Positions 27,581 through 57,492 of a stretch of DNA of 64,000 nucleotides are shown here, one piece after another. The DNA comes from Eledone cirrhosa (taxonomy: Eukaryota). Made by a program: the position numbers and the translations under genes. Location: assembly GCA_964016885.1 (NCBI GenBank), contig OZ024743.1, positions 3,100,001-3,164,000 of the forward strand, written 5' to 3'. Numbering within the stretch: position 1 is the first letter of the stretch; every line of letters begins with the position of its first letter. Below the pieces are notes generated by a model, which saw only the letters and a program-made list of their open reading frames with translations, was not told the origin of the DNA and made no database searches.

Positions 27581-27742
27581 GTTCACTTCTTACTAATAAA
27601 AACGTATTAGAATTATTGCATGATCTCTCTGATCAACATAATCTTTCTGTTACTATCAGAGAAAGTTCAAAAGGTGCTGCAATAGCTGGATTCACAACAT
27701 TTGTTGGGGGTATCTGCATGGGACCCCCTGGATTTATTTTGG
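27581..27742 (+). CDS. C19orf12: C19orf12/Nazo-like gene copy 1, internal coding exon
   Basis: TTTTAG acceptor, GTAAGT donor; SLLTNKNVLELLHDLSDQHNLSVTIRESSKGAAIAGFTTFVGGICMGPPGFILG resembles the C19orf12 N-terminal half; start-codon exon not located. Confidence 0.9.
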
Positions 27743-28037
27743 GTAAGTTCTACACTCGTTCACTCTAATTCTTCTGTCATTGTTCTTTCTTCTATTTCAC
27801 CCTCTTAATCATATTGAGAACACAGAAAGAAAAAGTGAACTTCATCAAATCAAAGAGGATTATAGATAAAGAAAGAAGACAATCAAGAACTATTCCAAAA
27901 TATGTCTTTGCCAGAAGAATGAAACTAGTATATTCTTCTGCAATACAACTGACATTCACAGATGTAAAATTTCTGCTATTTATTTCAAAACATGTTTATG
28001 AATGCAAATTCTCAGAAAATAGTGCTTCTTGAAAGTG

Positions 28038-28069
<32 letters not shown>

Positions 28070-28229
28070 CCATTTAACGTCCATTTTTCAACACTAACAT
28101 GGGTTAGAAAAGTAGTGAAAATTGAAAAAAAAAAAGTTGAAACTGTTTATTACAAGACTTATCAAACTTTTTCCAACCCAGAAAGAGCATTTTCAACTGG
28201 CCTTAAAAACTTTTCCCATATTTATAAAA

Positions 28230-28960
28230 TATTTCAGTAATGGCAATGATTTACTTAGCTCCCTGCTGTTTATTTTAGTGCTTTGAGCCATTTCAGAGGA
28301 GTTTAAGGTTGGTTGTCTATAGGAACTTTTATATGCTAACAACCTAGTCCTTATTGCAGAAGCTGTGAAAGATCTAGAGAAGAAATTCCAGTTGTGGAAA
28401 CAAAACAGAATCATAAAGGATCAGAGTAAATTTAGCAAAGACCAAAGTTTTAGTGAGTAGTAAAGAAAAGACTTCAATGCCATAGTGGAAATGCTGTGCT
28501 TAATATGTAGAAAAGGAGTAGTTAGGAATTCTATATGGTGTACTCTACATAAAATATGGGTAGACAAGCAGTGTAGTGAGATTTCAGGAAGGCTAACAGA
28601 AAAGGTGAACTGTATGTTGCAGATGTACAAGGATAGTTAGTAGTAAGAATCCAGTGAAATAAACTTTTTTCCAATCCCAGGAAGAGTCCATAGGACTAGT
28701 TGGTAACCTCTGTTATCTATGTGACCTAATTAGTAGGGGAGAAGGTTGTTTAGAAAGTGTAGTAGCTGGAATAAGAACATAGTGGAAAAAAATTCAAGAG
28801 GCTGCTGCCTCTAATGGGTTCTCTTCCCAAATGAAGGGTAGATTGTATGATGCCTGCATGAGAAATTCAATGTTGTATGGCAGTGAATGTGAAAGCATGC
28901 TCTGTTGGACGTGTAATGTTAATGTAGTAAATGTGTAAAAGAAAACGCTTAAATGTGAGT
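28230..28960 (+). mobile_element. Highly decayed RTE LINE fragment
   Basis: ELLYANNLVLIAE, VNLAKTKVL, KGRLYDACM. Confidence 0.75.
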
Positions 28961-29750
28961 GTTGTAAGAAGTGAAGGGACCTACCTTTGTGTCTCCATAT
29001 GTCTGGACTGAATCTCCCTGCTTGATGTTCACCTGTTTCTTGTTTGGCAGAAAACAACAAATCTCACACACTCATCCACACCAGTCATTACAAAGGATGT
29101 CCACACTCAATGCTGCCCATCGACTGAGAGAATGACACTCCGCACTTCTGATGTGACGTCACTGGCCCCTCGCTTCTGACAAGAAATTCCCTGCAGATTA
29201 TTTCAGGTTTTGGCTTGGCAGCCTGTCTGATGAAGGAGCCCTGTGAGGTGGGGTGGCCGGCCATTGTCTGTGGAAATATCTTTGCCATTTTGTTTGTTCG
29301 GCGCAGCCGAAACACCACTTTGACCTAGGAATAGTGTCTATCACCGTCTCCCCTTCCCCCTTTCTTTCCTCCTTTGTCTAATAGTCTTTGCTCTTCCTCT
29401 CCATTCCCTCTCATTTATGGCATTTATAGTTCTTTCCAATATTGCTTTCTTTTTCTGTATGTTTGACCAATTTGTAGTTATATCAACAATAAACGTACAG
29501 AAAATGTTTTTTTTAAATATCTAGACAATACTGGAATTATCCGCACAAAGGAAAACTCTTAAGTTTTATCCTGTCTTTTCAGACTCTAATTATAATTTTA
29601 TTCTCTATTTTGTCTTGATTATTAAATCATAAGAAATGTTCAAATGAATTGACAATATAGTTTTGAAGTTTTGCCATAACATGACAATATTTGATCAAGA
29701 AATTTTATCAAATAATTGAAATTATTTATTGTTTTTTTTTTCTGTTTTAG

Positions 29751-30007
29751 GTGGTGCACTTGGTGGTTTAGCAGCATATGCAAGTTCTAATAACTTTAAA
29801 CCTGTTTCACAAGTCATTTATGAAATGCCTGAAGGAAAGAAACACTTATTATGTAAAAAGGTTAAAGAAATATTGGTAGCTACAGCAATTCCGTATTCTG
29901 TTACCCTCTCATCTTATGTCACAGCTAATCCAGAAATCGCTAACACAATTCTAAACATTTTGAAAGAATTTATTACCACAGAACTTGGTATGTTTTTAAA
30001 AAATTAA
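29751..30007 (+). CDS. C19orf12: C19orf12/Nazo-like gene copy 1, last coding exon
   Basis: Strong acceptor, phase 1 matches the previous exon; GALGGLAAYASSNNFKPVSQVIYEMP...LKEFITTELGMFLKN* resembles [33 protein letters not shown] of human C19orf12 (recalled sequence). Confidence 0.92.
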
Positions 30008-30489
30008 CTCATTGATTGTTTACAAAATCTGTTGGTAATTAAGTTTAATTCAATATGATTCTGTTGGATCATCCCCGTAAATACATCATACTTGCATGAA
30101 TATTATTCTTAAATATGTACTAGAAGAAAAATACAGAATATTTACAGTTTTCCAGACTCACTAGAAAATAAATAACATGTTTCCGAAAATTTATATGAAA
30201 ATATATTTTTTAAATTCCATTAAATTACACTGAACTTAAAATCTTAAATTGCTGAAGTTCACCAAAGAGATAACAAAGGACCATGACAAATCAAGAAAAG
30301 CCATGTTGAACAAGACCTATCCAACCTATGTAAACGTGGAACAGCAGATGTGAATTTATGATGATAATAAAAAAAATGTCATAATGAAAATACCTGATTC
30401 TTATACTATTTTGGATCCAAGAGGGTTTGTAACATATCTTTATCATTTCAGGATTTTGTTTATTAAAAAAGTATAGCTGTAGTTTTAAA

Positions 30490-30780
30490 AGCAGCTTGGT
30501 TTAATTTTCTCCTTTACTTTGCCATGTGATTTACAAAGAAGTTTGCACAGATACTTGGAAATTTGCAATGCTACTTTCCCAACTTCAGTCAATTAACCTT
30601 CAAATCTCTTAACAATTCTCTGAACTGAGGGCCTACAAAAATGACTTCTTTAATCTTGGTATCACTGATCTGAGGGAACATATCTTTTAAATATTTGAAT
30701 TCAGTTTGTGCCTTATCTGTTGCTTTAACATAAGTCCAAGCTTTATGCACAAAGGAGCAAGGAACACATTCCCATTATCG
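30490..30780 (-). mobile_element. DNA transposase remnant (Chapaev-3-like)
   Basis: Minus-strand APLCIKLGLM..FKYLKDMFPQISDTKIKEVIFVGPQFREL resembles the LPPLHIKLGLMK..KIKEGIFVGPQIR motif. Confidence 0.6.
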
Positions 30781-31129
30781 TCAGCAGTGTCGTTTAACAT
30801 CCACTTTCTTGGCTAGCAAAAGTTGGACCAAGTCAGTACTGAAGTGGGGCTACCAACCTCCCAGGTAGGCCAGGGGTTGGGATGGGTGGTTCTGCATCAC
30901 AAGTATGGTCTTACATTCTATCAAGTGCAAAGGAAAGGTTGTCATCTCTTTGATACACCTGAAGGGTCCTCCTAACCTTTTTGCCAGGCTTTTTACGGCT
31001 GGATCTACAAAAACAATTTTTATTGCCTGGAACAATTGAAGTGCATTTTGGTCAATTATTCTAAGTATTGGAGTTTTGTACTTCCTGGCCTGCCTGGGAG
31101 GTTAGTAGCCCTACTTCAGGACTGAACTA

Positions 31130-32435
31130 GTAACCTGCATAGTCAATCAAATAATACATGACGGAGACTTACCCAATGACTGGCGCAGCAGTACAATCAT
31201 AAATTGTTACAAGGGCAAAGGTGATGCTCTAGAAAGGAATAATGGACCAAGTTATGAATGTGACAGAAAGAGTTATAGCACAGCTAATTAGGGAAAGAGT
31301 CAAAATAGATGAGATGCAGTTGGGTTTCATGCCTAGGAAAAGTACTACAGATGCCCTCTTCTTAGTGAGGCAACTACAATAGGTTCCTAGCCAAAAATAA
31401 GCCACTATATTTAGCTTTTGTTGATCTTGAAAAGGCTTTGACAGAGTATCTTGATCTATTATCTGGGTGGTTCTTAAGGAAATTAGGTGTTGAAGAATGG
31501 TTTGTGAGAGTAGTGCAAGCTATTCAAGGTACAGGTAGGGGTTCATCAAGGTTTGATTCTTAGCCCACTCCTATTGATAATAGTTCTTCAGGCCATAATA
31601 GAGGAATTTAAAACTGGTTATCCATGGGAACTTCTCTATGCAGATGATTTGGCCCTTATAACTGAAATCAAAAGAGAACTAGAAAATAAATTCCGATTAT
31701 GGAAACTGAATTTGGAATCATGGTATGAGAGTAAACTTAGCCAAAACTAAAGTGCTAATGAGTAGGAAAAAAGATAGGACCCAGATTCCTTCAGAGAAGT
31801 GGCCCTGCTCAGGCATAAACTCCATACAATGTATACAATGCAAATCTTGGGTACACAAAAGATGTGGGATAACTAACAGGAAAGAAGACTTTGCATGTAG
31901 AAGATGCACAGGAGTAATCGAGAGGTAGAGTGCCAATGATATAAAACTTTTCCAGTCACAGGAAGGATCCATAGACTTGGTTGATAGCTTCTGCTATCTA
32001 GGTGACTTAATTAGCAGTGGAGGAGGGTGCATCGAGAGTATAATAGCTAGAATAAGGATAGGATGGAAGAAGTTTAGAGAACTACTCCCACTGTTGTCAA
32101 CAAAAGGTTTTTCCCTACGTACAAAAGGATGGCTGTATAATGCCTGTGTGCAGTGAAACATGCCTAGACTGGAGAGAAATAAAGCGATCATGCTTCGTTG
32201 GATGAGCTGAGGGTGTGTGCAGGAGAGAAGACTGTGTTGGACATGAACAATGGGTGAAGAAATGTCAGTGGAAGGAAGCCACAGTAGAGGACGACCAAGA
32301 AAAATATGGGTAAAGGTGGTGAGAGCTAACCTCAAATCCCTAAGACTAGCAGAGGGGATGACAAATGGAGAGTTGCTGTGCTAAGAAGGGCCTGTCCAAT
32401 TCATGCAACGTGGAAAAATGGACATAAAAATGATG
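31130..32435 (+). mobile_element. Decayed RTE LINE (RT region to tail)
   Basis: LSPLLLIIVLQAI..WELLYADDL..CIQCKSWVHKRC. Confidence 0.88.
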
Positions 32436-33039
32436 TAGAGCTGTACTACTATAGGGCACATTCACAGGTGTGGCAGATAGTGGAATGGTCTCTATATTGA
32501 GGTTAGCTGTGAATAAACCAGCTTGATGGCTAAGCCATTGCAGACCAACAACAACAACATTCATCAAGGTGCAATATTGTTGGGTCTATAAAAATATATG
32601 TACATATCCTATAACAATGCTGTGACAAGGCAAATGAAGGTCACCTTCAAATGAACCTTGCTTCCATCTGTGGGTTAAATAGATACCGCACTCTCTCCTT
32701 TCAGCTGTCATATCTTTGATGTTCCACTGGGTTATGGGTATGTGGGTTGAGAGGGTGTTTGCTCAAGACTACACAGGCACCTAAAACAGGAATGAATGCA
32801 CAGTATAAGACAAAAAAAAAAGAAAAATATCCTATGGTGATAGATAACTGATAAAGGTGGCAAGCTTGAGATACTGAAAGCTGCTCACCAGAAATCTGTA
32901 CATTGGCGACTTGAGTGTTGGCTGTGGATAATGTTGAACAATGGCAGCTGCCCAAGATCCTACTCAAGTCACCATGCAGCCCAATTTAGGAAGTGTGATG
33001 TCTGCTCCAAACTGGGGATGTCCCGATAAAAGGAGAGAT

Positions 33040-34540
33040 AAAAACGCATCTGAACTTAACTTGGCTGGGTTCTTTATTACTGGAGTTGGAAACTAAGAAA
33101 AGAAAAGAAAAAAATCAGTAAACACATTAGTTTGGTTTTGGGATGTTGGAACAGCAGAACGATGCTGGATGTAACCAATTCTGGAAGACCAGAGCAAAGA
33201 ACTGCAATATTAGATGGTACATTATAGCGTAAACATCGTTGTCTTTTCAGAGAAATGACTGAGAGGGCAAGGTGTGTTAAGAGAGCAAAACTACAGCTTC
33301 TGGCCCTTTCATTGCGAACTGTCGTCAGCAAACTGGTGTCTCTTGTTGGCGTCACATAACTGTTTGTAGTGCCTGTGCTCCTACAATGGCAAAGATACAG
33401 AATAAGAAGGAAGATTTCTTCGTAGTCACCTGGACACAGTGCCATCAGCTGACAAGGTGCTTGACCTAGGTGATTTTAATGCAATAGTAGGGATAGATTG
33501 TCACTTTGAAAAAGGAAAACTCTAGTGGACAATTTCTTCTGGAGCTATGCAGCGAACACTATTTTGGGCGTGACAAGTACTTTCCGGTTTCCTGAAAAGT
33601 GTTTTTTTAAATAGCTATTGGCATCTACTTGACTACGTATTCACCCAGAGGAACAGCATTGCAAATATAATCTGTATCTGTGTTATGAGAGAGATTGACA
33701 GCTCCACTGATCATGTACTGACGTGTACTATATGCAATTTGTGAGATTAAAGTGTAAGAAAGTTTGCAAAATTACACAAAAAAGACTGGATGTCAGCCAA
33801 CTAAAAACTCTTGAGGTGCAACGTACACTTGTAACAAATATAACCAGCAAGTTAAAGATGTTTTCTGAGAGCAGTTACATGAGGCAATATATAAAACGGC
33901 TGTTGCCGAAATCGGCTTCCCTAAATGCAAGCATGCTGATTGGTTTGATGAAAATGACATGAAGATACACAGTTATCTGAGAAACGTAGATACCATCAAA
34001 CCGGTCTAAATTAATGTACTCTCGGGTTTCGAATAATCGTTCCCTCCATCCCGCTTATTCATTTTTCAGACCCTCCACCCCACATATTAAATTTTGTTAA
34101 TCTATCTCCGGCAAAATTTTATTTTAAGTGGTAGCATTCTTGCGACAATTAATTTTCTTTAGACATTAAAAAAAATATAAATGACAAAAAAAAAAAAGAA
34201 CATTACAAGAAATCCCATACGTTATAAAATAAATAAGATGAGTTGGGGGTCTCAATATGAAAACTAAACGACTAATTCTGGTAATTAAGAAAACAACGGA
34301 GACAACCTAGAAAAATTACCGATTTTCCACCCCACCCTGCTTATTTCAACCTCTATTATTTGGCAGCTGAAAGTATACAGCAAGTTACCAGGCGACTCAA
34401 AGATGCGAGTGCCTTACTACAAGAGGAACTGTAGTTGATTGAAAGATCAATGGTAAGACCAGAAGACGACTGAAATACAGGCACTTGCTAATTCCCATAA
34501 CGTGTTTACAACCCCCCAGAAAAGTGGTAATGCACCAATA
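33040..34540 (+). mobile_element. Decayed RTE LINE 5' part (APE region), interrupted by a probable TA-flanked MITE at ~34018-34375
   Basis: LGCWNSRTMLD, LGDFNAIVG, WHLLDYVF, DSSTDH, DWFDEND motifs. Confidence 0.65.
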
Positions 34541-34559
34541 AAAAGTAAAGATCGTTTAT

Positions 34560-34973
34560 ACTTCTGTATCAGGACACTGGGGTGTATGTACAATATTTAT
34601 TTATGAAGATTGAGCTGAGTAGAGCTGAATAGCTGACATGCCAAGAGAGATGAAACAATGAATTAAGGATTTCAGAAGACACGGTCCACTGGCTGAAGTC
34701 TTGCCAGGCCGTGGTTAAGTTGCTGTGTTACATGTTGGCTAGTGATTTCCCGACGAAAGAAAGTTAGTTGTTTACCTTTTTGCAGTCAGGATGCGAGAGA
34801 GGATACCTCCGGCGGAGCGCGCCTGACCAAAAGGCCAGGCAGCGAAAAGGTGAAAAGAGAGGGAGATAGATTTCAGCTATCTCCTTTATAGTTCCCTGGA
34901 TGGAAGTCACAAAGAAGGTTCTGCAACCTCAACGGGAAGTAACTCCAGCTACTTCCTGTCTAGAGAGCGCTAC
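34560..34973 (-). mobile_element. Solo LTR related to the 46285-48401 family
   Basis: Shares CTTCCTGTCTAG..CGCTACA end and GGCCAGGC core; closest to 42553-42957. Confidence 0.65.
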
Positions 34974-38538: not shown

Positions 38539-38584
<46 letters not shown>

Positions 38585-39956: not shown

Positions 39957-40046
<90 letters not shown>

Positions 40047-40881: not shown

Positions 40882-40917
<36 letters not shown>

Positions 40918-41929: not shown

Positions 41930-43460
41930 TAGGTAAATTCAAATTGCTTAGTGTATCTCGTTAGGCGAGATCAAATCTTAGATAAGTGTCTATGGCGGGC
42001 TCCTTTTATTTCCCCCTCTTGTGCAAGTTTTTTATGGGACATTCAGCACACTTATTGATGCAGTTAACAAGATCACTTCCACCACAGGTGTCCAACAAGG
42101 TGACCCATTTCACTTTGCGTGGATTGTCGACGACATTGCCCACTTAGTCTGTTCAGTCTTCAAATCTGGTACCTGGACGACGCGAGACTGGGTGGTTCGG
42201 CTGAATATGTTGCCTTCAGCGAGTCATCCCAACCTTATTGCTGATTGTGCTTGTGATCAACTCGTCTGGTGATAAATGTGAGCTACGGTGAAACTGAATT
42301 TTAAGACGCAGTACTTAGCATCCAACCTGCCTGATTAGGGCACGGGTAACACCGAAAGATGGCTCATTCATTCTCGGCTCTCCAATTCTCTTGAAAGCCA
42401 TAGGAGGGTGCCTGTAAACCAAACACACTGATCTGACGAGGACGACGGAGAAATTGCATCTTATTGACGCGCACCTGGTACCCTTCTCTCTGAGGAACTG
42501 TTTCGCCCTTCCAAAACTTCTATTTATGCTGCGTGGTGTGCTTTGTTACCTTTGTAGCAAGAGTTGCCTCCCTTGTTATGACAATCACATCACCGCTCTC
42601 TAGACAGGAAGTAGCTGGAGTTACTTCCCGTTGGGGTGGCAGAACCCTTTTTGTCACTTCCGTCTTGGACCCTATAAAAGGGACACTCAGAGCTATCTCT
42701 CATTTGCTCTCTTCTAACCTGCCTGGCCCTTCGGCCAGGCGTCTTCGACCAGGCGCGTTCGCCTGGCAACCCTAACATGGTCTCTTGCGAGCTAACTTCA
42801 AAACGGTAACAAATAACTTTACTTCATTCTTTCATCTACTCATGGACATGTCAACTATACTATTCTACATAACTTCAACTTGTTTATTAAACTTTATACA
42901 CACAACTGAGTCTTTTGTTATATTCATACACACCAGTATTTTGTTATACCTTCATACGGATTGCCTCGTCGAACACGACACCACCATTCGATGCTGTGCT
43001 GAACCTACCTGCAATATTAGTTTCAACAGCGCCAACTGGCAACAAATGAGATTCCCTGTGAAATTCGGTGGCCTCTGCCTCCGAGCTACTTTTGACCTAG
43101 TACTGCCGGCCTACCTATCCTCAGTCACCTTCAGTCGCACCCTCATCAGCGAGGTCCTCCGCAAGCAAGCAGAACCAATTGTGGACTAAGAACTGGAGTC
43201 AGCTCTGGCTGATTGGATTGACGAAGGCCTCGCCGTCCTCCAGTAGGCAGATATCTAACGCAACTGGGACAATGTCAAGTGCAGGTCAATCTAGTCTTCC
43301 TCAGATCAACACCGTCTCAACTGCCTCCATTTTGCCTTGCAGTCAAACAGGTGTGCATGGCTCAATTCAGTGCGCTCCTCATCAACCGGTAGCCTTCGTG
43401 ATGAGTATACTCGCATCGGAGTGGCCTCCGTGTGTGTGAGCCGCACAAATGCCGTTGTGG
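41930..43460 (+). mobile_element. Decayed CRE-clade LINE RT region
   Basis: TGVQQGDP, WYLDDA, WQQMRFPVKFGGLCLR..LPAYLSS. Confidence 0.7.
42553..42957 (+). mobile_element. Solo LTR inserted in the CRE fragment
   Basis: Begins TGTAGCA, contains CCCTATAAAA; reverse-homologous to LTRs at 41308 and 46285. Confidence 0.75.
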
Positions 43461-43842
43461 AGCTGTTGTCGTCAAGACCCCAATCCCCGAACTGCAGTCC
43501 CCCACCTCCTCCGTAAAACGGGAAGACAGCAACTCGGCGAGGTATGGTGGCTTCTCCAACGAGTGTTGCTGACCATTCGCCTTTTCATTTCATTATTTAT
43601 TCTCAAGAAACCATTATTCATTTTACACAAGTGTTGAATGAGCCAGCATTCTCTCCTCTACACTATCTCTTAAATACCTCTAAAGATTTAAACGTTATAT
43701 ATTATGAACGCAACTTGACGGAAGTTGTATTTATCAAAACGCTGGTAGTTTTAAAATGCTTATAGCAATTTCGCTGAGGGATTTTCGATGAAAAGTTTCT
43801 GGCTCTGTGAAGTGCTTATATTGAGTATTTAGGGGGAAGAAG

Positions 43843-43870
43843 ATGAGAAAAAGACAACGGAAACCGGCAG
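43843..43870 (+). CDS. Probable first coding exon (MRKRQRKPA) of C19orf12-like copy 2
   Basis: AAGATG start, CAG|GTATGT donor, phase 1 compatible with exon 57331 (G|CG). Confidence 0.5.
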
Positions 43871-44683
43871 GTATGTATTAAGATATTTAAAATTTTTGAT
43901 CCCTATCGATTATTTCTGTTAAACGAAAGTAATCGTTATTCAACATGTTTTGTAGACAGACATACTGTCAGGCTAAGAGAAATATGTGTTGAAAAATGAT
44001 AAATGAATAAGAGAAAAATGATAAATTAATATATTAATGTGTGTGTGTAATGGCCAACGGAAGGTTGTGCTTATCCCCGTTTGTCTGCTCTATCTCTCTG
44101 AAGTTCCGAACCCCAGGTCTAATTGTGTCGCCTCAATGAACCCAGCGGACAGAATTGTGAGGATAGCGAGGGAGATGAGCTGAAAGAGCCATTCCAACTC
44201 GCATGTACCACTTTCAATATATCCCGAGACGCCTTTTCGTTTCCAGGCTCCCGTGAAACTAAAACTGGATCTGGTAAACACCGATAGGGGAAGGAAATAT
44301 CAGCAATTTTCTTTTCTACACACCAAGTTTAGAGTTGTACATACATACATACATACATACATACATACATACATGCATGTACCAGTAACTCCTGAGAATG
44401 TAGTAGGTGTCGCATTAATATATGGTGTTTGTAGGGCATTTTTTAAAAACCTGGCGGAGCCCATCTCTTCGCCATGTTTACATACATATAAATGAAAATT
44501 GTACAAATTGAAAAAAAAAAGTATATATATAATGGCGGTGCCCTAGCATTGCTTCAGCCTATCGGTTGGAACACGTAATTGAGTAATATTGGGAAACACT
44601 TCGGGTGGGCTTCTTTTCTGGAAATTATTAGAAACAAACAAACAAACAAAAAATGTAAACAAACCGATGTGTTTATTCCCTTT

Positions 44684-45633
44684 TGGGCACTACAACGCTA
44701 TTAGCTATCAGTCGAAAGCAGCCGATGAAAGCAAAACATCGTTTATTTCCGTATTACTACCAAGTGGAGTTACTTAAATGAAAATTTTATTTTTTCACGA
44801 ATTTTATTTTTTTTCTATTTTTTATTAATGCATATAGATGTAAGTGAAGTTACTTAAATGAAAATATAGGTGGCCCTTAAAAGGGTCAAATTAGAAAACA
44901 AATTTAAGTTAATTAGAAAACAAGTCATGGTTATCAAATAAATTGGATTTAATCATTTATATTTTCATAGTCATGGTTATCAATGTAGAAAACAAGTCAT
45001 TTTCACCAACAGTGGAGTTAATTTAAATGAAAATATAGGTGGCCCTTAAAAGGGCCAAATTAGAAAACAAATTTATGGTTATCAAATTTTTTTCACCAAC
45101 CTTATTCAAGAAATGTTTAGAAAACAAATTTTTTTCACCAACCTTATTCAAAAGCATGGATACAGTCCACATGGAGACAAGAGACAGTCCCCATGGAGAC
45201 AAGAGACAGTTCCATGGAGATTGATGGTATCTGCTGTAGTAGCGGTAGCGATGGAAAGATCGCGATGGTTAATTCCATTAACAATTTGGCCCTTTTAAGG
45301 GCCACCTATATTTTCATTTAAGTTAACTCCACTGTTGGTGAAAATGACTTGTTTTCTACATTGATAACCATGACTATGAAAATATAAATGATTAAATCCA
45401 ATTTATTTGATAACCACGACTTGTTTTCTAATTTGGCCCTTTTAAGGGCCACCTATATTTTCATTTAAGTAACTTCACTTACATCTATATGCTTTAATAA
45501 AAAAAAAAAATAAATAAAAAACGCGTGAAAACTCCACTTACGCGTGGTGGTAGTAATACGGAAATAAACGATGACGAATGACGTCACCTTCGCCTGCTTT
45601 CACGACTGACAGCTCATGGCGTTGTAGTGCCCA
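44684..45633. mobile_element. Foldback DNA element with long inverted arms, possible 4-bp TSD CTTT
   Basis: TGGGCACTACAACG ... CGTTGTAGTGCCCA; inner arms ~44820-45060 vs 45283-45500; central GAGACAGTCCCCATGGAGACAA repeats. Confidence 0.8.
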
Positions 45634-45659
45634 CTTTTGTTGTGAAAAGTTGCTAGAGT

Positions 45660-45880
45660 TCATATATTGGTTTCTGATTTAAGCACAAGACCAACAATTT
45701 TGGAGAGGTGAAGTCGACTAAATCGACCCTAGTGGCTTATTGGTACTTTATTTTATCGACCCTGTAAAAATGAAAGGCAAAGCTAACCTCGGCAGGATTT
45801 GAACTCAGATCGTAAAGGGCCGTAATTCTATACCATAAAGCAAGTTGTTCGATGCTCCACCCATACTACCAATCGACCGC
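45660..45880 (-). mobile_element. Meta-domain-like tRNA SINE (further copies at ~35900-36070, ~38950-39000, ~58760-58910)
   Basis: TGGTACTTTATTTTATCGACCC..GAAAGGCAAAG..GGATTTGAACTCAG. Confidence 0.75.
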
Positions 45881-46284
45881 CATATGAAATAGACGTATAA
45901 GTTGCATGACTCTCTGTCCAACTTCTACCACCTCCAATAGTAATTTACCCTACTTATTCCACTATTTTATAGTTAATATATGAATTATGTCAGATTTTCA
46001 CAAGAGCAAATAAATTTCAGAAAAAAATATTTTCTTTTTTAATTTAATAATTTGTGCAATTTCCTTTTATACGTTAATTGTTTTTTTTTTTTGTGTCTAA
46101 ATTTTAAATGACGCATTTATTTACAATTCTAAACTTGGTCTGTTACAACAAAGAAAGAAAAGATGACAATTGTTTGGTAATATTTTCGGTCCCTCTTTCG
46201 CCGTTCATGTGTGTAAGTCGACAGGTTAAATAGTTATTTAGGGAACATCAAATTTTTATTGTCATATAACATATATATAAGATT

Positions 46285-48401
46285 TATAGCGAGGATACTA
46301 GGTTGTATGAATGTAACAAAACGAGACATGGTTTGTGTGTATAATATTTAATTAACAATGGTAGATAGTATACTTGACATGTCAAAGATGAGGATGTTGT
46401 TAGAATGAAGCAAAGTTAGTAGTTACCGTTTTGATTGCCAGGCAAACGCGGCTGGCAGAGGACGCCTGGCTAAGGCCAGGCGCCTGTTGGCCAAATTAAT
46501 GGCGGAGCCCAATGAGAGGCTCTTGACCTGGTGCCGAAAAGGCAAAGAGAGTTAGGGAGCTTAAAGTTGTTAGTTTTATAGGGTTCTGACCGGAAGTTGC
46601 AGAAAGGGTTCCACTTCCCGTCTAGATCCCAATCAAAACAAGGGAGACAACCGCTACATAACTTCCCGCCAGAATTTTAGTGTATAAAAATCGAAATGAA
46701 AATATGTAGCAAGTTGGCGAGAATGTTGTAACAGGCATGAAAATTACGACAAAAGAATGTTTGGAAAAATCAATGATAGATATCAAGGTAGCCAACCGCT
46801 CTTGGCCAGAGAACGACTGGACATCCATCTATCCATCACCCAAAGATACAATGTAATAAAGTAAAAGTAATAGAAGAGCTCAAAGTTCAAAATATAGTTC
46901 ACAGGTGTGCAATCACATGACAGCAGGAAAGAAAGTGTGTTCCAGAGAATGAATGCAGGTGGTTTCTGTTCTGTGGTATATCGTGAAATTTCCAACCTCC
47001 GAATGGATTTTCTCACAGGAAGAGTGCTGCAAAAATGAATTCTCTGGCTTTGGTGAAGCTGTGTTGATGTATTGCTGTTGCTGTTATATTGCTGTTGTCT
47101 CGCTGAGTGAGCGTATTCGGTGTTTAAATTCACAGTAAATAATTTTTTTTTAGAAAAAATGAGTTGCGCAAAGTGCTAGAAATAGCAGCCGAAGTTGATG
47201 GTCGATGTTGAGAATGCGTTGACCTGGAAGGGTCAAGAGGCCAGCGACCAGGGAAATAAGCATTCTCAATAAATGCGCGGTCATCAACGGTAAATTTACA
47301 TTGTAAATTTATAAACCGGCAAATAGAAGAATATAGCTTAAGGCTGAAGAATCCTTGGGGAGAAATGTTATCTCTGGCGTGCGGCTGTCTGTGAGTAGAG
47401 ACATCTCAGTGAATCGAGAATTTGTGCTGCCTACACGTGCCAATACAAGGTTGAAAAAAAATAATATTTCTAACGCGCGAGAAAATGATAGTGCAATTTT
47501 GAAAGTGACAATGATGAAAAAGAAAGGCTTCACTCAGCATAATTATTGGTGTGAACTTTGGGAAAAAACAAAAAAACTTGAACGATGAAGAAAACGATGA
47601 ACAAAAAGGCAATGGTTCATCGAAAATAAATGTTCCTGTTGAAATGTTTTTTAAAGAATATCAAATTTCTTTTTTTTTGTGTGTGTGTTTTGAAAGAGTT
47701 CGATGTAAGAAACGAGAAACATATATATATATCGTGAAATGTTTTTTTTTTTTTTTTGTTTTGAAAGTGTTCGTTGTAAGAAACGAGAAACATATATATA
47801 TATTGGTGAAATGCGACAGTTAGTTGATGCGTGAGAGAAAAAGTCTGTCTGTGCGAATTCCACATGTGCGTGTGTGCGTGTCCTTGAGTATTTTCATAGT
47901 TTGTCGCTAAATTTGCTGTGTATTCGTAATGTTACTCACAAAACCAGATGTGCTATTTTTTTCTTTTTTTTGGGGGGGTGACCACTTATAGCGATGAACG
48001 GCTGTGTGTTCGTATCACGTTAGGGTTACCAATATAGCGAGAGTACTGGGTTGTATGAATGTAACAAAACGAGACATGGTTTGTGTGTATAATATTTAAT
48101 TAACAATGGTAGATAGTATACTTGACATGTCAAAGATAGATGTTAGAATGAAGCAAAGTTAGTAGTTACCGTTTTGATTGCCAGGCAAACGCGGCTGGCA
48201 GAGGACGCCTGGCTAAGGCCAGGCGCCTGTTGGCCAAATTAATGGCGGAGCCCAATGAGAGGCTCTTGACCTGGTGCCGAAAAGGCAAAGAGAGTTAGGG
48301 AGCTTAAAGTTGTTAGTTTTATAGGGTTCTGACCGGAAGTTGCAGAAAGGGTTCCACTTCCCGTCTAGATCCCAATCAAAACAAGGGAGACAACCGCTAC
48401 A
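46285..48401 (-). mobile_element. Complete non-autonomous LTR retrotransposon (TRIM/LARD-like)
   Basis: Near-identical LTRs 48033-48401 and 46285-46658; PBS TGGTAACCC; PPT GGCGGGAAG; GATT TSD on both sides; no RT or integrase inside. Confidence 0.9.
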
Positions 48402-49488
48402 GATTAAATAGAAATACATTCATATAATCAATTAATTATTGCTAGGAACCTTATAAATGTAAACGAAATAGCGTCCTATAAGTTGTCTTTTTCTTCTTTT
48501 CTCTTGGAAATTAAGAATACTCCAGCGCCCGTTGTTGTAGCGTATGGTTGAGCGTGCGTGTCTTTCTCTCTTTATATCTCTTATTTTATACTATTTTTGT
48601 ATAAATCTGGTGTCAGTACCGATGACCCATCCAACCCTTGCTGGCATGGAGAACGGACGGTAAATTATGACGACGACGATGATGATAATAATGACGACAA
48701 CGATGATGATGATGATAATAATAATTATGATGATGACTGTAACAAAATATCCTTTGGAAGTTGTTGGTTCATTGGATACAGAAGGACATTTCCAGGAGGA
48801 TTGAGTAAGGAGTAGATTCGGTGCCAGATTTACCATTGTGCTTAGGTGTGCTTAAGTATAGGGCCCCTATAACGGCGGCGAAGATTCGAAACCGAATCTG
48901 AGCTTTCCCGCCTCTGGGACAAGCCGTGGTAACTTGTTTACGCTCAAGAGACTAACCCCTTGAGAGAGGCTAAACACAGGTCAGAGGTGTTTACTCCTGA
49001 CAGAAAATAGGTCAGAGGATATATCCATCTTCCTGACTTGTTTACGCTTGGCAAACTAATCCCTTGGGAGACTAACTAAAGTTCAGAGGATATATCTATC
49101 CTTCTAACTTCAACTCTTATAAATACAGGGGTTGTTTACGCCTCGACAGAAAAGAAGTGATATACAGACAAGTCGCATTTACAAGCTCTCGTCACGAAAA
49201 ACCAGTCTGCCACTTATTCTCACCTTCCTGGCTGATCGCTGACTCCTGCAATACAAACAAGTAAATATACTGATACGCCGCACACGCATTCATAGTGAGT
49301 TCAGTATTTATACACGCACCATTTCTGTTTACACATATTGTACCTTTCTGATACAGTACAAATTACATCGAAACCACCATACCAACAGTTACATCCATCC
49401 ATCCACTTATCGTTACAACATAATATTCCGTTACAACTGGTGACCCCGTAAAACAGACACACAACCTTCTGATCATCCACTACAAACG

Positions 49489-50538
49489 ATGTCTCTAGCA
49501 CACGACGATTCATCTATGGCAGAAATGGCAGTCAGGGCGGCATTTACATTAAGGATTCCACCATTCTGGGTGCACGATCCAACACTGTGGTTCGCGCACA
49601 TCGAAGCGCAGTTCGCATCGAACCGGATCTTTATGGAGGCATCCCGTCTCACACATGTCATCGGTTCGATGTCTCCGGAGATTATGAATGAGGTTCGAGA
49701 CCTCATTTTAGCACCACTCGGCTCTGTGTCATATGACACATTTAAAAGAACATTAGTTAAGCGGACGTCGGAGTCACAGCAGAAGCGTTTACACCAGCTC
49801 CTCATATCGGATGAATTAGGAGATAAAAAGCCGACGCAACTCCTACGGCGAATGAAGCAGCTCCTGGGAGAACATAAACTCCCGGATGAAATTTTCAAGT
49901 AACTCCTCCTCCAGCGTTTACTTTCTGTCACACAAGTTGTACTAGCATCCACCAGGGAGTCCACCACCATAGAAGAACTCGCCGAGCTGGCAGATAAAAT
50001 CATGGAGGTACCACATCCGCACTCAAAAATAGCGAATGTGACGCCAGCCGTGCCTTCCACCAATCCTTTCCTTCAGCCCTCCAGTGCCACAGAGATGCCC
50101 GATCTACACCAGTTACTGGCACAGCAAGCAACACAGATACAGGCCTTGATGCAACAAATTCAGGCCTTGTCACTGGGCAACCCTGCCACGCGTCGGTCCA
50201 ACAGTCGAACTCGCCGATTTGGTGGTCGCTCAAGAAGTCCGAGCGCATCTCGGGATTCACCAGAAATGTGTTGGTACCACCAACGATTCGAGAGACGAGC
50301 GCAAAAGTGCAGCCATCCCTGTTCATTTGTTTCGAAAACGAATCAGGGAAACGACACAGCCAGAAACTCAATGCGATGGACGTTTCTGGCCCTCATAACC
50401 AAAGTCGCCTATTTTTCATTCAGGATCGCGTCACAGGCACGCGTTTCCTGGTTGACACCGGTGCCGAAGTCAGCATCATCCCGGTTTCCTGCGTTCCTGG
50501 AAAAAGGAGAGAGACACCAGCCTGGCTCCAGGCGGTGA
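49489..50538 (+). pseudogene. gag: Gypsy gag with premature TAA at 49900
   Basis: IPPFWVHDPTLWFAHIEAQF, LGDKKPTQLLRRMKQL, CWYHQRF..A.KC..PC knuckle in one frame. Confidence 0.9.
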
Positions 50539-53492
50539 ATCACTCACATATTCCGACCTACGGAGAACAGTCCCTGACACTAAATTTGGGACTACGCCGC
50601 ACTTTCCAGTGGGTATTCGTTGTGGCTAAGCTGCCGACCCCTATTTTAAGAGCTGACTTTCTTTAGCACTTCTCGCTGCTAGTGGATCTGAAAAACCAAC
50701 GTCTCGTTGACAACTCCACTGGTCTCACTGTGCGCGGCATAGCCGCTAGGACAGCCACAGTCAGTCCAGTCATTTCACGATCGACAACAACAACCCGGCA
50801 CAACCACATCATCAACAAATACCCAGACGTAGCTCGACCACTATTCAATGCTTGGCCTGTAAAGCATGACGTCACACACCACATAAAAACACACGGCCCA
50901 CCTGTCGCTGCACGACCTAGAAGGCTACCACCAGACCGGCTGAAGTCCGTCAAACAAGAATTTCAGCACATGCTGGATCTCGGCATCATACGTCCGTCCA
51001 GCAGCAACTGGTCCTCACCCATACACTGTGTACCCAAGAAGTCGTCGAACGACTGGCGAATCTGTGGCGACTACCGTGCACTGAACAACTGCACCGTTCC
51101 TGATTCTTATCCAGTGCCTCATCTACAGGACTTCTCTAGCTCGCTGCACGGGGCTCGCATATTTTCGAAGATCGATCTTGTGCGAGCTTACAATCAGATA
51201 CCCGTTGAGCCAGCAGAGATTCCAAAGAGCGCAGTCACAACACCCTTTGGAATGTTCGAATTTCTGCGTATGCCTTTCGGTTTGCGAAATGCAGCGCAGA
51301 CATTCCAGCGATTCATCGATACAGTCACCAGAGGTCTACCTTTTGTATACGCATACATTGACGACTTACTGGTGGCCAGCAGCTCCGATGAAGGACATGA
51401 GAAACACCTGGATCCCCTATTCACACGTTTGCGTGAATACGGAATTGTTATCAACCCCAGCAAATGTGAGTTCGGAGTTGCGTCCCTTCATTTTCTGGGA
51501 CACATCATTGACAAAGATGGTATTCGCCCACTTAAGGAGAAAGTCAAATCCATCATTGATTTTCCACAACCTATATCTCTCCGCAAACTGCGAGAATTTC
51601 TTGGCCTGGTAAACTTCTACAGAAGATTTATACCCCACTGTGCAGAGACAGCCCAACCACTCACAGATTTGCTGCGGCAGCGTACAACCAAAAACGCAAA
51701 CATCAAGCTCAGCGAAAAAGAATGTACCGCTTTCGCTGAGTTGAAGAAAATGTTGTCCGAGGCTACAATGCTGAGTTACCCCAAACCTGACGCCCCAATG
51801 TGTTTATTGACTGATGCATCCGATTTCGGTGTTGGATGTGTGCTTCAACAACTCTCTGGCGATATTTGGCGACCTGTATCTTTTTTCTCTAAGCGATTAA
51901 AACCCACCGAAACTAAGTACAGCACATTCAGTCGTGAATTATTGGCAGCATACCTTGCTGTCAAGCATTTTCGACACATGCTAGAAGGTCGTGTGTTCTC
52001 TATATACACCGACCACAAACCACTACTGTACGCGTTCAACGCCAAGCCTGACCGACACTCACCCAGGGAGGTCCGACATCTGGACTTGATTTCTCAGTAC
52101 ACTACTGATATTCGGTACATTAAGGGTGCTACCAACTCAGCAGCTGATGCCCTATCGCACAGGGAGCTTAACGCAATCCACACCACTGCCACTATCAACC
52201 TCCAGAGGATTGCAGCGGATCAACAGAACGACGAGGAACTGCTGCAACTCCGGAAATCATCCTTGAAATTGAAGGAATGCCCGCTGCCCTCTTCTTCGGG
52301 TTATATTTGGTGCGACATCTCCACAGGCTGCGAGCACCCATACGGGCCCCGGAAACATCGACGCAACGTTTTCTCGGCACTGCATTCTCTGGCACATCCT
52401 GCCGTCCTCGCCACGCAGAAACTGATGGTTGCCCGCTTTGTGTGGCCCAACATCAACAAGGACACCCGCGAATGGGCTAGGAACTGTATCGCGTGCCAGA
52501 AGGCGAAAATTCACCGGCACATCAACGCCCCGATCGGTTCTTTCGTAACACCTGATGCACGGTTCCAACATGTACATATAGACATAGTTGGACCTTTGCC
52601 TCCTTCTCAAAACTACACTCATCTTCTCACCTGTGTCGACCAATTTTCTCGCTGGCCAGAAGCTTTTACCCTGGCAGATATTACTGCGGAAACTGTCGCC
52701 AAAACGCTAGTGTTTCACTGGGTTTCGCGTTTCAGCACACCCGCGACCATCACTACGGATAGAGGACGTCAGTTCGATTCGCACCTATTTACCGAGCGGA
52801 CTCGTCTCCTCGGGTGCAAACACATCCGTACAACAGCGTATCACCCTGCCGCTAACGGCATGGTAGAACGCTTCTACCGCCAGCTAAAAGCATCTATCAA
52901 GGCTTACGAAGACTCCACTAACTGGTTCGAATACCTCCCACTCATTCTTCTTGGTATTCGTTCCACTGTTAAGGAGGGAGTCGGACATTCTCCGGCTGAA
53001 ATGTTGTATGGCACCGTACTCACTCTACCCGGACAAATGATCGCTCCTGTTTCGCCACAAGAACTTCCAGACCCTACAAAATATGTGCACCGTTTACCGT
53101 CATCGATGTCGCATCTATCTCCTTCAGCCCCTAAACAACAGCACATTACTTCACACATACCAAAAGACATCGATACATGAACGCATGTTTTCGTTAGAAA
53201 TGACGGTATTCCATCGCAACTTCTTCCGCCGTATTCCGGGCCCTATAAGGTGATACAGAAACGCCCTAAGTATTTCGTCCTCGACTTGAACGGGAAACGA
53301 AATACTGTCTCCATTGATCGTTTAAAAAAAGCGTTCATAGAACAGGAATTGCCACCAGTACCCACCGTTTCTCCAGCAGACTACCAACAACTTTGCCCGA
53401 CACAAACACGACAAATTCTGCACAACCCCGACACACCAAATCTGGAAGAACAGTCCGATGGCCCACGCGATACGTACAAGTTTATTGGGTAA
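50343..53492 (+). pseudogene. pol: Gypsy pol (protease-RT-RNase H-integrase), in-frame stops at 50664 and 53178
   Basis: [52 protein letters not shown]. Confidence 0.95.
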
Positions 53493-54592
53493 GTACAAAT
53501 TATGCATCCGGTCGACATTTCGGCTAATTTGTACATTTCAACGAATCGGCCAATTTCTGTGGTCATGAACTATTGCTACACACAAATCAATTAACTCTGT
53601 GCATCACCCACATCAAAAGAACAGACAAAAGAACATTTTTCCGTTTCTATGAAATGAACGAACTTTTAATCAACAAACTTTTCGTACGAACATTTTCAAT
53701 TTTATCTAACAACACAGTACATTTTCCTGCATGTAAATTTCTTTTGCTTTGCATGTTTTCTTTCATTTCTCCTGTTTGTAAATGACTTTCATGTGTTTTT
53801 TTTATTTTTACTGATTTTCTTCAACAACACACCTAGTCATACCTATCTTCATTTCACATGCACCTAGATCGTTCAATCTTAGCTTTCTCACTGGAATGGG
53901 GGTACTATAACGGCGGCGAAGATTCGAAACCGAATCTGAGCTTTCCCGCCTCTGGGACAAGCCGTGGTAACTTGTTTACGCTCAAGAGACTAACCCCTTG
54001 GGAGAGGCTAAACACAGGTCAGAGGTGTTTACGCCTGACAGAAAATAGGTCAGAGGATATATCCATCTTTCTGACTTGTTTACGCTTGGCAAACTAATCC
54101 CTTGGGAGACTAACCAAAGTTCAGAGGATATATCTATCCTTCTAACTTCAACTCTTATAAATACAGGGGTTGTTTACGCCTCGACAGAAAAGAAGTGATA
54201 TACAGACAAGACAAGTCGCATTTACAAGCTCTCGTCACGAAAGCCAGTCTGCCACTTATTCTCACCTTCCTGGCTGATCGCTGACTCCTGCAATACAAAT
54301 AAGTAAATATACTGATACGCACACGCATTCATAGTGAGTTCAGTATTTATACACGCACCATTTCTGTTTATACATGTTGTACCTTTCTGATATAGTACAA
54401 ATTATATTATAATCGTATTCTGTGATACTTGAATTTATTGTATGAATATTTTGTGTTATTGATTTTATCATTCAATATTCAAATTGAATATTGTTATAAT
54501 AAAATAAACTTTGTAACAACACAATCCTGGTATTTTTCTTTACATCGAAACCACCATACCAACAGTTACATCCATCCATCCAGGACGGGGTT

Positions 54593-55170
54593 CATCTTCC
54601 TGCCAAAAGAAAAAAAAATTTTTTACGATGACTTTTCCAAATGTTTGGGGCCTTATAACACAGGGCTTCATTTGTCCTAAATCGGCACTTAGTAGATTAT
54701 ATGATGTCTGCGTGGGAAGTGTGTTATTGCATAGTAGTGAGATTTGGGAGGTAAATGTAGATGATATGCGGAGACTGGAGCGAGCAGGCTCTGTTGAATG
54801 TGTGGTGTTAATGTGCACGAATGACGGGCGTGAATAAATTGAGAGAAAAACTGAGTATGTGAGGAATCAGATGTAGTGTGCAGGAGAGAAGACTACGCAG
54901 GTATGAACATGTGATGCTATTGATGGTGAACATTAAGTGAAGAAGTGCCAGGAGATGCTAGTAGATGGGTAGTAGAGGAAGACCGAGAAAAATGTGGGCA
55001 GTGGTGGTTAAAGCTGATCTCAAATCGCTGAACCTCATAAAAGGGATGATGAAGGAACGCTAGGAGCGGAGGGAGGCTGTAATTGAAACATGACTCATCC
55101 AACCCATGAAAGCATAGAAAATCGGGTGTGAAATGGTGATGATGATGATGATGATGACGACGATGACTAT
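54593..55170 (+). mobile_element. Decayed RTE LINE 3' fragment abutting the Gypsy 3' LTR
   Basis: RLYDVCVGSVLLHSSEIW..DMRRLER; (GAT)n tail. Confidence 0.8.
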
Positions 55171-55329
55171 GATGGATCAATTGCTGAAGCTGATTTGTTA
55201 CAATGTAAAGAAATATTATAATTTGGAGAGCTGTAACCATTTTTCTTGTTCGACAAAGTCTGGGGTTGTGGCTAATAGGAGATATTTTCATGTAGAGAAA
55301 AAATATAAACAAACATAAGAAGCAAAATC

Positions 55330-57030
55330 CATTCATCATCCTCATCACCATCATTTTACATCCTGCTTGCAAGGGTGGGACGGGTCCTATTCAGCACAGC
55401 ATCTCTCCACTTGTCACGGTCCTTTGTCATCTCCACCGTGAGCTTCAGCGATCTGAGGTCAGCTCTCACCACCTCCGCCCATGTTTTTCGTGGTCTTCCT
55501 TCTTCTGGGATTTCTTGACACTTCTTTACCCAGCGGTCATCCTCCATGAGCATCACATGCCCATACCAACACAGTCTTCTCTCCCGCACGCTACAGCCTA
55601 TCCCTCTTATACACAGTTTCTCTCTCAACTCGTCTATGCTTGGTCGTTCACGCACATTGACATTGCACGTCCAATGGAGCATACTTGCTTCATTTCTCTC
55701 CAGCCGTGGCATATCCTCCGCAGTTGCTGCCCCTGTCTCACTACCATGCAGCATCGCGCATCTCACACAGGCATCATATAACCCGCCTTTCGTTCGTAGG
55801 AGGAACCTTTCTTTGTGAACAGAGGAAGCAGATTACTAAACTTCTTCCAACCCGTCCTTATTCTAGATACTATGACCTCAGAACACCCGCCTCCCATGCT
55901 AATCTGGTAACCTAGGTACTGGAAGTTATCAACCACCTCTATAGATCCTACCTACATTTGAAAAATATGTCTATCACTGCAACTACTACTGTCAAATTTC
56001 TCTGTACATCTACTGCATATGTAGTTTTCCCTACTTGTTAGTTTGCCTGCTATCCCACTACATCTCTTGTGTACCCAAGATCTGTATTGCGTACATTTAA
56101 TAGAATTTATGACAACTCCTTTTCTGCATACCAAACATGGCCATTTCCCAGATGAAATCAGAGATTTGTGCTCTTTTCTACTTATCAACACTTTAGTCTT
56201 AGCTAGGTTCACTCTCAGTCCTCTTGATTCCAACTGCTGTTTCCATAGCCAGAATTCATTCTCTAGCTCCTCTACTGATTCTGCTATAAGTACCCGATCG
56301 TCAGCATAGAGAAGTTCCCATGGGCAGCCAGTCTTAAACTTCTCTGTTATGGCTTGAAGGACTATAATGAACAAGAGCGGGCTGAGGACCGAACCCTGAT
56401 GCACTCCTACTTGTATCTGGATTTCCTCACTAAACTCCATTCCTACTCTCACTTTACTGACAGCACCCCTGTACATAGCTTGCTCTGTCCTCACAAGTCA
56501 TTCCTCTACACCTAGTTTCCTTAGGGACCACCAGATGACAGATTGGGGTACTCTATCAAAGGCCTTCTCTAGGTCAACAAAAGCTAAGTATAGTGGCTTA
56601 TTCTTCTCTAAGAACCTCTCTTGTAGTTGTCTCACTAAGAAGAGGGCATCTGTTATACTTTTCCCAGATACAAAATCAAACTGTATCTCATCTAATTTGA
56701 CCCTTTCTCTAATTAGTTGCGCTAGTATTCTTTCTGCCACTTTCATAACCTGATCCATCAGTTTTATGCCCCTATAATTGCTCCTCTCCAGAGCATACCC
56801 TTTGCCTTTGTAGCAATTTATAATAATACTGCTGCATCAGTCTTTGGGTATGGCACCGCCATATATAGCTTGATTAACGATGCGTGCAACCAGTTTAATT
56901 CCTACTTCTCCTGTTGCTTTCAGCATCTCAGCAACTATCCCCGACGGTCCAGCGGCCTTACCACTTTTCATTTCCTTAATTGCCTCTTTGACCCTATAGT
57001 CGTCAATCTCAATAGCTGGTCCCTCTGGCG
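55330..57030 (-). mobile_element. 5'-truncated RTE LINE
   Basis: AFVDLEKAFDRVP, GVHQGSVLSPLLF, LLYADD, WVHKRC, RLCWYGHVM. Confidence 0.95.
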
Positions 57031-57330
57031 TAGATATTGTAAGGTTTATATAGAAGCCAAGTTTGTGAGTGGGTTCATGTTAGGGATATGACTTAAAGCT
57101 GGGAAGTCAGCCTGCCGCTTCTATTCATTTATTTTCTATCCCCAAAGGTTTACTTGATTTTTTCAACTACTATTTTCAGTGATCGACTATTATTATAGTC
57201 ATTTGCGTTGGGACCACTACCTTCCAAATTTCCTATTTTACCATTGCTTTTTAAGTCAATCGGTTGTTTATATTATCTAAATAACTAAATATGATTCTTT
57301 ATTAAATAATTTATTTTATTTATATTTCAG

Positions 57331-57492
57331 CGAAGAAAACATCTATAAACCAAATATTAGATAGTGTTTCTCTGGTATCTAAACACGAAAAAATAACTGT
57401 TATAAAAGGAACAACACTCAGAGGAGTCTTATATATTGTAATCGCAACATTAACTGGAGGTTATATTTATGGGCCAATTGGTTTAATTATTG
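57331..57492 (+). CDS. C19orf12/Nazo-like gene copy 2, internal coding exon (divergent)
   Basis: TTTCAG acceptor, GTAAGTTCTA donor, same 162-nt length and phases as 27581-27742; KKTSINQILDSVSLVSKHEKITVIKGTTLRGVLYIVIATLTGGYIYGPIGLIIG. Confidence 0.8.

What the first reader, a model, noticed from the sequence alone, without database searches (positions are those of the whole stretch)
27581..57492. Tandem, strongly diverged C19orf12/Nazo-like paralogs hidden among repeats
Seen: two 162-nt exons with identical phases and the same GTAAGTTCTA donor lie 30 kb apart and both end GPxGxIxG; neither appears in the ORF track. Copy 1 has a matching last exon. Known: C19orf12 is a small glycine-zipper membrane protein mutated in MPAN neurodegeneration, and its fly homolog Nazo is a STING/IKKbeta-Relish-induced antiviral factor. 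Inference: a local expansion with rapid divergence, possibly an immune-effector cluster.
Basis: partly seen in the sequence, partly recalled or inferred. Interest (0 to 1): 0.7.

Follow-up and report, generated by a model that had tools for sequence, protein, structure and literature searches.

The report
Old, fast-evolving octopod C19orf12 gene pair
This octopod genome carries two side-by-side, strongly diverged copies of C19orf12, a small membrane-protein gene tied to a human brain disease and to antiviral defence in flies; the duplication is shared with Octopus species, and an immune role for the odder copy is plausible but untested.

Summary
Observation confirmed and extended. Both 162-nt exons are real C19orf12-family exons. 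Copy 1 is spliced 27742→29751 in one run's contig. Copy 2's missing 257-nt last exon lies 17 kb past the window; the two copies align without gaps at 26% identity. Copy 2 has no Pfam hit exon by exon, but scores 97 bits on a profile of 41 relatives and is 50% identical to an annotated Octopus bimaculoides C19orf12 homolog. The pair is old, not a recent local burst: each copy has its own Octopus counterpart, and a copy 1 + copy 2 clade is rejected (p-AU 0.0002). No further copy was found in 464 kb; a third gene lies 48 Mb away and a broken relic on another contig. Divergence is fast (copy 1 vs 3, dN/dS about 0.5-0.7) without shown positive selection. Copy 2's subfamily is basic and aromatic. 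Immune induction is published for family members in sea anemone and flies, but untested here; these are not Nazo orthologs. Copy 2 splicing and both start codons are unverified. This scan noted a similar tandem pair in another genome.

The parts
27581..27742 (+). Copy 1, exon A (162 nt, phase 1-1): N-terminal helix, strand and first half of the glycine-rich hairpin. TCA stands where the family has Met1, so the start codon must lie on an upstream exon that was not found.
   Evidence: PF20721 32 bits; contig piece; M1 nearly invariant in the family
27743..29750 (+). Copy 1 intron A-B (2008 nt, GT..AG)
   Evidence: (X4 contig 14 skips it)
29751..30007 (+). Copy 1, last coding exon B (257 nt to stop)
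   Evidence: (21.6 bits)
30008..30377 (+). Copy 1 3' UTR as far as the spliced contig reaches; AATAAA at 30366
43560..43842 (+). Single-copy stretch ahead of the candidate first exon of copy 2; holds a kB-like site (43778) next to an IRF-like site (43790). Inferred promoter/5' UTR; motifs chosen after seeing the sequence.
   Evidence: single copy; 4 of 270 background windows hold both motifs; no strict kB consensus; a 192-nt X4 contig at 43551-43742
43843..43870 (+). Candidate first coding exon of copy 2 (ATG, 9 codons + 1 nt, phase 1, CAG|GTATGT). Inferred; junction not verified.
   Evidence: (best of the 3 donors with an in-frame ATG among 12 donors in 30400-57330); O. sinensis isoform X1 also has a short upstream extension
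57331..57492 (+). Copy 2, exon A (162 nt, phase 1-1); AAG stands where the family has Met1
   Evidence: 37.3 bits on own profile; shuffles at most 7.9
57493..64000 (+). Start of copy 2's inferred intron A-B (23,225 nt), which runs past the window end to the 257-nt last coding exon B at G000:C4:3180718-3180974 (L005:6718-6974)
   Evidence: (exon B 42.6 bits); junction not verified by RNA

Best explanation
The two exons belong to two intact, tandem C19orf12-family genes from a duplication that is shared with Octopus; copy 1 keeps the family-typical sequence and is spliced, while copy 2 belongs to a basic, aromatic, fast-evolving octopod subfamily that likely serves as an infection-induced effector, as Nazo came to do separately in flies. 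Shown: gene structure, family membership, age of the pair, altered chemistry of the copy 2 subfamily. Predicted (from models of the Octopus counterparts): both keep one fold, a glycine-rich helical hairpin flanked by a small soluble domain. Inferred from published work on the family: the hairpin would sit in ER, mitochondrial or lipid-droplet membranes and restrain lipid turnover; induced through NF-kB/STING-type signalling, a copy would change the membranes and lipid supply that RNA viruses need. The identity and age of the genes are about 95% sure; the immune role of copy 2 is the weak step.
For: Family: (G42 G43 G47 P48 G50 G58 nearly invariant with copy 2 included). Age: reciprocal best matches copy 1-XP_014772542.1 and copy 2-XP_014767582.1; copy 2 clade 100/100, copies 1+2 as one clade rejected. 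Constraint: open frame and exact exon sizes kept; neutral substitution left the frame open in 19 of 500 runs at 75% and 4 of 500 at 60% protein identity. Fast change: 82% between O. bimaculoides and O. sinensis counterparts; long stem 1.1 plus 0.88; dN/dS <= 0.2 rejected for copy 1 vs 3; gain and loss of copies. Chemistry: net charge +14 (Octopus +6, +7) against a median of -1 in 34 other members; 13 of 23 family-conserved columns kept against at least 18. Same predicted elements in both subfamilies, pLDDT 85 and 84. Precedent: Nematostella C19orf12 log2FC 4.98 with cGAMP (PMC8713801 supplement rows); two soldier-fly homologs up on virus infection (PMC12952803 table); Nazo but not CG3740 antiviral (PMC12384588 passage). 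Weak: kB-like plus IRF-like pair at 43778-43799.
Against: No induction or antiviral data exist here for any cephalopod copy. dN/dS does not exceed 1: copy 1 vs copy 2 is saturated and omega = 1 is rejected. No strict kB consensus near the candidate start; the relaxed motifs were picked after the fact and the promoter itself is inferred. Nazo's lipid-droplet role is independent of immunity (PMC10883546 passages), and zebrafish has four co-orthologs studied in development, so duplication alone does not imply defence. Copy 2 has lost the family's Met1 and depends on an unverified exon. No genome-wide control for the rate of ordinary orthologs was computed.
Confidence: 0.45

Rival explanations
1. 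Same two genes, but the split is metabolic, not immune: copy 2 is a tissue-specialised lipid-droplet or membrane-contact protein (for example digestive gland or gonad), and its fast change reflects relaxed constraint after duplication.
For: The best-tested function of the family is control of lipolysis and lipid droplets, independent of immunity, with nazo gut-enriched and CG3740 broad; dN/dS below 1; the subfamily's altered chemistry is shared by this species, O. bimaculoides and O. sinensis; neighbours found are a Gab/Dos-like PH gene and a DUF1674 gene, not immune genes.
Against: Family members are induced by cGAMP or virus in a cnidarian and two fly lineages; repeated gain and loss of copies. 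The two roles need not exclude each other.
Confidence: 0.37
2. Copy 2 is decaying in this species: it lost its ATG, has a 23-kb intron and an LTR element, and is now a young pseudogene of a gene that still works in Octopus.
For: AAG at the family's Met1; terminal branch 0.88 against 0.03-0.08 for the Octopus orthologs; only 46-50% identity to them.
Against: 138 codons open, both exon sizes and all splice sites exact; neutral decay rarely keeps the frame, and the relic on C2 has 5 stops at 70% DNA identity; a single-copy, in-phase ATG exon is available; copy 1 also lacks Met1 and yet is spliced.
Confidence: 0.12
3. A recent, species-specific tandem expansion forming an immune-effector cluster.
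For: Tandem position, identical exon sizes and donor decamer.
Against: Copies 1+2 as one clade rejected, p-AU 0.000159; all three own copies as one clade rejected, p-AU 0.00001; synonymous sites saturated; only two copies in 464 kb.
Confidence: 0.02

Closest known systems
Octopus bimaculoides XP_014767582.1, O. sinensis XP_036360077.1/XP_036360076.1, O. vulgaris CAI9723918.1 ('protein C19orf12 homolog' / hypothetical)
   Same: Likely orthologs of copy 2: 50%, 46%, 41% identity, one clade (100/99, 100/100), same basic and aromatic make-up and, in the first two, the C-terminal FIRFFITSKL motif.
   Different: They keep Met1; copy 2 here has lost it, is more basic and sits on a much longer branch. 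They are machine annotations, with no paper found.
O. bimaculoides XP_014772542.1
   Same: Reciprocal best match of copy 1, 43% over 138 residues, family-typical glycine zipper and near-neutral charge.
   Different: Their pairing in the tree is unsupported (52/3), so one-to-one orthology is not shown; copy 1 lacks Met1.
Drosophila Nazo (CG11671) / CG3740 pair
   Same: A lineage-specific duplicate pair of C19orf12, one of which is STING/IKKbeta-induced and antiviral (PMC12384588 passages).
   Different: Nazo exists only in Sophophora (PMC10917227 passage), so the octopod pair arose separately; induction here is untested.
Human C19orf12 (MPAN/NBIA4), Pfam PF20721
   Same: About 140 residues with a central glycine-zipper hairpin.
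   Different: No human sequence was compared here; single-copy status in humans is recalled, not checked. Copy 2 keeps only 13 of 23 family-conserved columns.

Membership tests
C19orf12 (PF20721) | Pfam profile score above the 30-bit cut-off, copy 1 | tested here: met
   Exon A alone 32 bits, exon B 21.6 bits.
C19orf12 (PF20721) | Pfam profile score above the cut-off, copy 2 | tested here: inconclusive
   Neither exon hits Pfam alone; the spliced protein could not be handed to the Pfam tool. Its Octopus ortholog scores 40.8 bits.
C19orf12 (PF20721) | Full-length homology to family members, copy 2 | tested here: met
   97.1 bits on a profile of 41 library hits, exons 37.3 and 42.6 bits; best of 1000 shuffles 7.0-7.9. 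The profile holds three Octopus proteins and its members were found with a query that included exon A. Direct BLASTP to P0031: 20/50 and 47/83.
C19orf12 (PF20721) | Central glycine zipper GGxxxGPxGxxxGGxxGG in a hydrophobic hairpin | tested here: met
   Present in copies 1 and 2, peak 19-residue hydropathy 1.44 and 1.76 (family range 1.41-2.06); copy 3 lacks one repeat.
C19orf12 (PF20721) | About 140 residues starting at the conserved Met1 | tested here: inconclusive
   138 aligned codons in both copies, but TCA and AAG at Met1; starts depend on upstream exons, inferred for copy 2, not found for copy 1.
C19orf12 (PF20721) | ER / mitochondrial / lipid-droplet membrane location and lipid-turnover function | not testable with these tools
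   Published for human and fly proteins (passages).
Nazo (Drosophila) | Orthology to Nazo | tested here: not met
   Nazo is limited to Sophophora; the six octopod proteins plus one unnamed protein form their own branch, 98/97. No named fly sequence was in the tree.
Nazo (Drosophila) | Induction by STING/IKKbeta/NF-kB | not testable with these tools
   No challenged samples available; only a post-hoc motif hint.
Nazo (Drosophila) | Restriction of picorna-like viruses | not testable with these tools
   Needs a cell assay.

The most novel reading that the evidence does not exclude
Octopods evolved their own 'Nazo' by convergence: an ancient tandem duplicate of C19orf12 with a remodelled hairpin and a basic, aromatic surface became a dedicated, NF-kB/IRF-induced antiviral membrane effector that is still changing fast, which would point to C19orf12 as a recurrent, animal-wide interferon-like effector whose duplicates are repeatedly recruited for defence.
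Probability: 0.3. Interest if true: 0.65.

Novelty: new member of a known kind. Interest (0 to 1): 0.38.

Why it matters
C19orf12's molecular function is unsettled although its loss causes MPAN, and cephalopod antiviral effectors are barely known. A natural pair that shares one predicted fold but differs in charge and hairpin glycines offers a ready comparison (lipid-droplet rescue versus virus restriction). Without induction data it remains an ordinary, already machine-annotated paralog family with an undescribed history.

Tried and rejected
RNA for copy 2: run X4 laid on 42000-58200 listed no contig or joint across 43870-57331 and no piece on exon A (8 pieces shown, 600 not shown; one run, contigs only): no evidence either way. 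No RNA holder was listed on record; X4 is taken as RNA only because its contig skips the intron. First exon of copy 1: the first 390 nt of the spliced contig were not placed in the pieces shown; the donor at 23080 lies in a repeat and has no in-frame ATG; the donor at 12395 has no phase-1 ATG and lies in a stretch duplicated at 92-95% elsewhere on C4. Both rejected; start unresolved. The donor weight matrix was approximate and recalled. More copies: profile scan of 19,524 stop-free fragments in 664 kb found only the six known exons. Weak genome hits L072, L073, L074, L091, L102 gave no profile match; L072 (E 0.03, one stop) stays unexplained. No exon A within 70 kb before the C2 relic. Word-index protein searches with single exons found nothing. 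Scripts cut copy 3's exon wrongly; those rows were dropped and redone. Fold searches: no match at E <= 0.001, best Z 6.6; uninformative. Homodimer job on P0015: no verdict. STING and Mab-21 family searches of the genome returned no candidates; Mab-21 should exist in any animal (recalled), so the blanks say nothing. Protein atlas unreachable. Supplements of PMC7064767 (oyster poly I:C), PMC11228953 (Amphioctopus LPS) and PMC4199593 (O. vulgaris hemocytes) held no 'C19orf12'; naming may differ. The journal version of the cGLR paper was not held; the preprint PMC9980059 text has no mention; its unseen supplements may bear on mollusc induction. First tree had long-branch rows (48 rows); rebuilt with 21 rows.
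Full report
Setting. The window is G000:C4:3100001-3164000 of a 3.0-Gb genome. About half is repeat. The nearest proteins are from Octopus, at 43-50% identity, so I read it as another octopod (inference).

Observation. Copy 1's exons hit PF20721 at 32 and 21.6 bits. A 1180-nt contig of run X4 joins exon A to exon B and ends just past an AATAAA; X4's kind is not on record, and I infer RNA from the skipped intron. Copy 2's exon A has no Pfam hit. Its last exon lies outside the window at C4:3180718-3180974, found by phmmer at E 1.4e-6 in 264 kb. It is 257 nt, exactly as in copy 1, so the two proteins align without gaps at 36 of 138.

Family membership. A profile of the three exon A peptides returned 256 proteins at E <= 0.001 from 1.84 billion; 13 of 14 checked carry PF20721. 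A profile of 41 of the 150 listed (130-160 aa) scores copy 2 at 97 bits against at most 7.9 for 1000 shuffles; it includes three Octopus proteins. Direct BLASTP to O. bimaculoides XP_014767582.1 gives 20/50 and 47/83 for the two exons.

Copy number. Only these two genes were found in 464 kb around the window. A third gene with a 162-nt exon A and a shortened exon B lies at C4:51282441-51284592; it lacks one zipper repeat. A last-exon relic with 5 stops, 70% identical in DNA to copy 1, lies on C2. Genome searches score only the best candidates, so these counts are lower bounds.

Age. Copy 1 and XP_014772542.1 are reciprocal best matches, as are copy 2 and XP_014767582.1. In a 21-row tree copy 2 groups with its two Octopus counterparts at 100/100; forcing copies 1+2 together is rejected (p-AU 0.000159); six octopod proteins plus one unnamed protein form a branch at 98/97. 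No named squid, cuttlefish or fly sequence was in the tree, and long branches may pull together. The O. vulgaris model CAI9723918.1 begins with part of another paralog's exon A fused to a copy 2-type protein, which suggests, by inference, the same tandem order there; that piece is only 12 of 26 identical to XP_014772542.1, so Octopus may hold a third paralog.

Rate. Copy 2-type proteins are 82% identical between O. bimaculoides and O. sinensis, low for that pair by my recollection; I had no control. Copy 1 vs copy 3: dN/dS 0.54 (GY) or 0.73 (MG); 0.2 or less is rejected under both, 1.5 too; the C-terminal alignment is uncertain. Copy 1 vs copy 2 is saturated and dN/dS = 1 is rejected. So the change is fast, and positive selection is not shown. 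Neutral substitution kept copy 2's frame open in 19 of 500 runs at 75% protein identity, which argues for constraint.

Anatomy. AlphaFold models of the two O. bimaculoides proteins (stand-ins; the spliced products could not be folded) show the same order of elements: helix, strand, long glycine-rich helical stretch (about 27-66), strand, four helices (pLDDT 85, 84). The copy 2 subfamily swaps small residues in the first hairpin helix for bulky ones, has 14-17 aromatics (at most 12 in 34 others) and net charge +6 to +14 (median -1), and keeps 13 of 23 conserved columns. Copies 1 and 2 both lack the family's Met1. For copy 2 a single-copy, in-phase ATG exon at 43843-43870 fits, and O. sinensis isoform X1 has a 13-residue upstream extension of unlike sequence. 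A kB-like and an IRF-like motif lie 45-65 nt before that ATG; 4 of 270 background windows hold both, but I chose the motifs after seeing them and no strict consensus is present.

Mechanism. Shown: two intact paralogs, old split, altered chemistry. From papers: the family acts at lipid droplets, ER and mitochondria and limits lipolysis (PMC12384588, PMC10883546; passages); Nazo but not CG3740 is antiviral; Nazo is limited to Sophophora (PMC10917227, passage); a Nematostella homolog rises about 32-fold with cGAMP (PMC8713801, supplement rows); two soldier-fly homologs rise on virus infection (PMC12952803, table passage). Inferred: copy 2 is likely an inducible membrane-lipid effector of defence (0.45); the rival is organ-specific lipid handling (0.37); decay is less likely (0.12).

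Novelty. The Octopus counterparts are already annotated as C19orf12 homologs. A full-text search for C19orf12 with octopus found 0 papers; none of the 30 listed for C19orf12 with marine invertebrate terms held the gene name. The octopod subfamily split thus seems undescribed in the held library, but duplication of this gene is known in flies and zebrafish. Verdict: real genes, new members of a known family, moderate interest.

Noticed in passing
window 48867-54407: LTR retrotransposon inside the inferred first intron of copy 2: LTRs 96% identical, DUF7041, protease and an 837-aa RT/RNase H/integrase frame; related copies appear among X4 contigs.
   Followed up: partly
G000:C4:51282441-51284592 (L002, L033): Third C19orf12 gene, 40% identical to copy 1, with one zipper repeat and about 14 C-terminal-domain residues missing; also lacks Met1 in exon A; expression untested.
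   Followed up: partly
G000:C2:380549734-380549944 (L065): Broken relic of a copy 1-like last exon (5 stops, 70% DNA identity), no exon A found within 70 kb upstream.
   Followed up: yes
L048:4458-8989 (C4:2.944-2.949 Mb): Exons of a Gab/Dos-like adaptor gene (PH domain, then proline- and tyrosine-rich exon), about 180 kb upstream; family name from recall of the motifs.
   Followed up: partly
L014:3307-3627 (C4:3.267 Mb): DUF1674 exon (SDHAF4-like, name recalled), about 87 kb downstream of copy 2.
   Followed up: no
L018:2747-4519 and L016:2981-4417: PIF1 helicase frame (Helitron-like) and GIY-YIG frame (Penelope-like); element names inferred.
   Followed up: no
window 10241-12665: Stretch duplicated at 92-95% at C4:235.24 Mb, holding a strong donor at 12395; nature unresolved.
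   Followed up: partly
window 63538-63997 and 23187-23600: A 230-nt-arm inverted repeat without spacer (98%) and related inverted repeats, probably MITE-like elements.
   Followed up: no
P0003 (O. vulgaris CAI9723918.1): Gene model looks chimeric: part of one paralog's exon A fused to the next paralog, with an aberrant C-terminus.
   Followed up: partly
G000:C198:18588-18785 (L072): Weak match (36%, one stop, E 0.03) to copy 2's last exon on a 33-kb contig; no family-profile match.
   Followed up: partly
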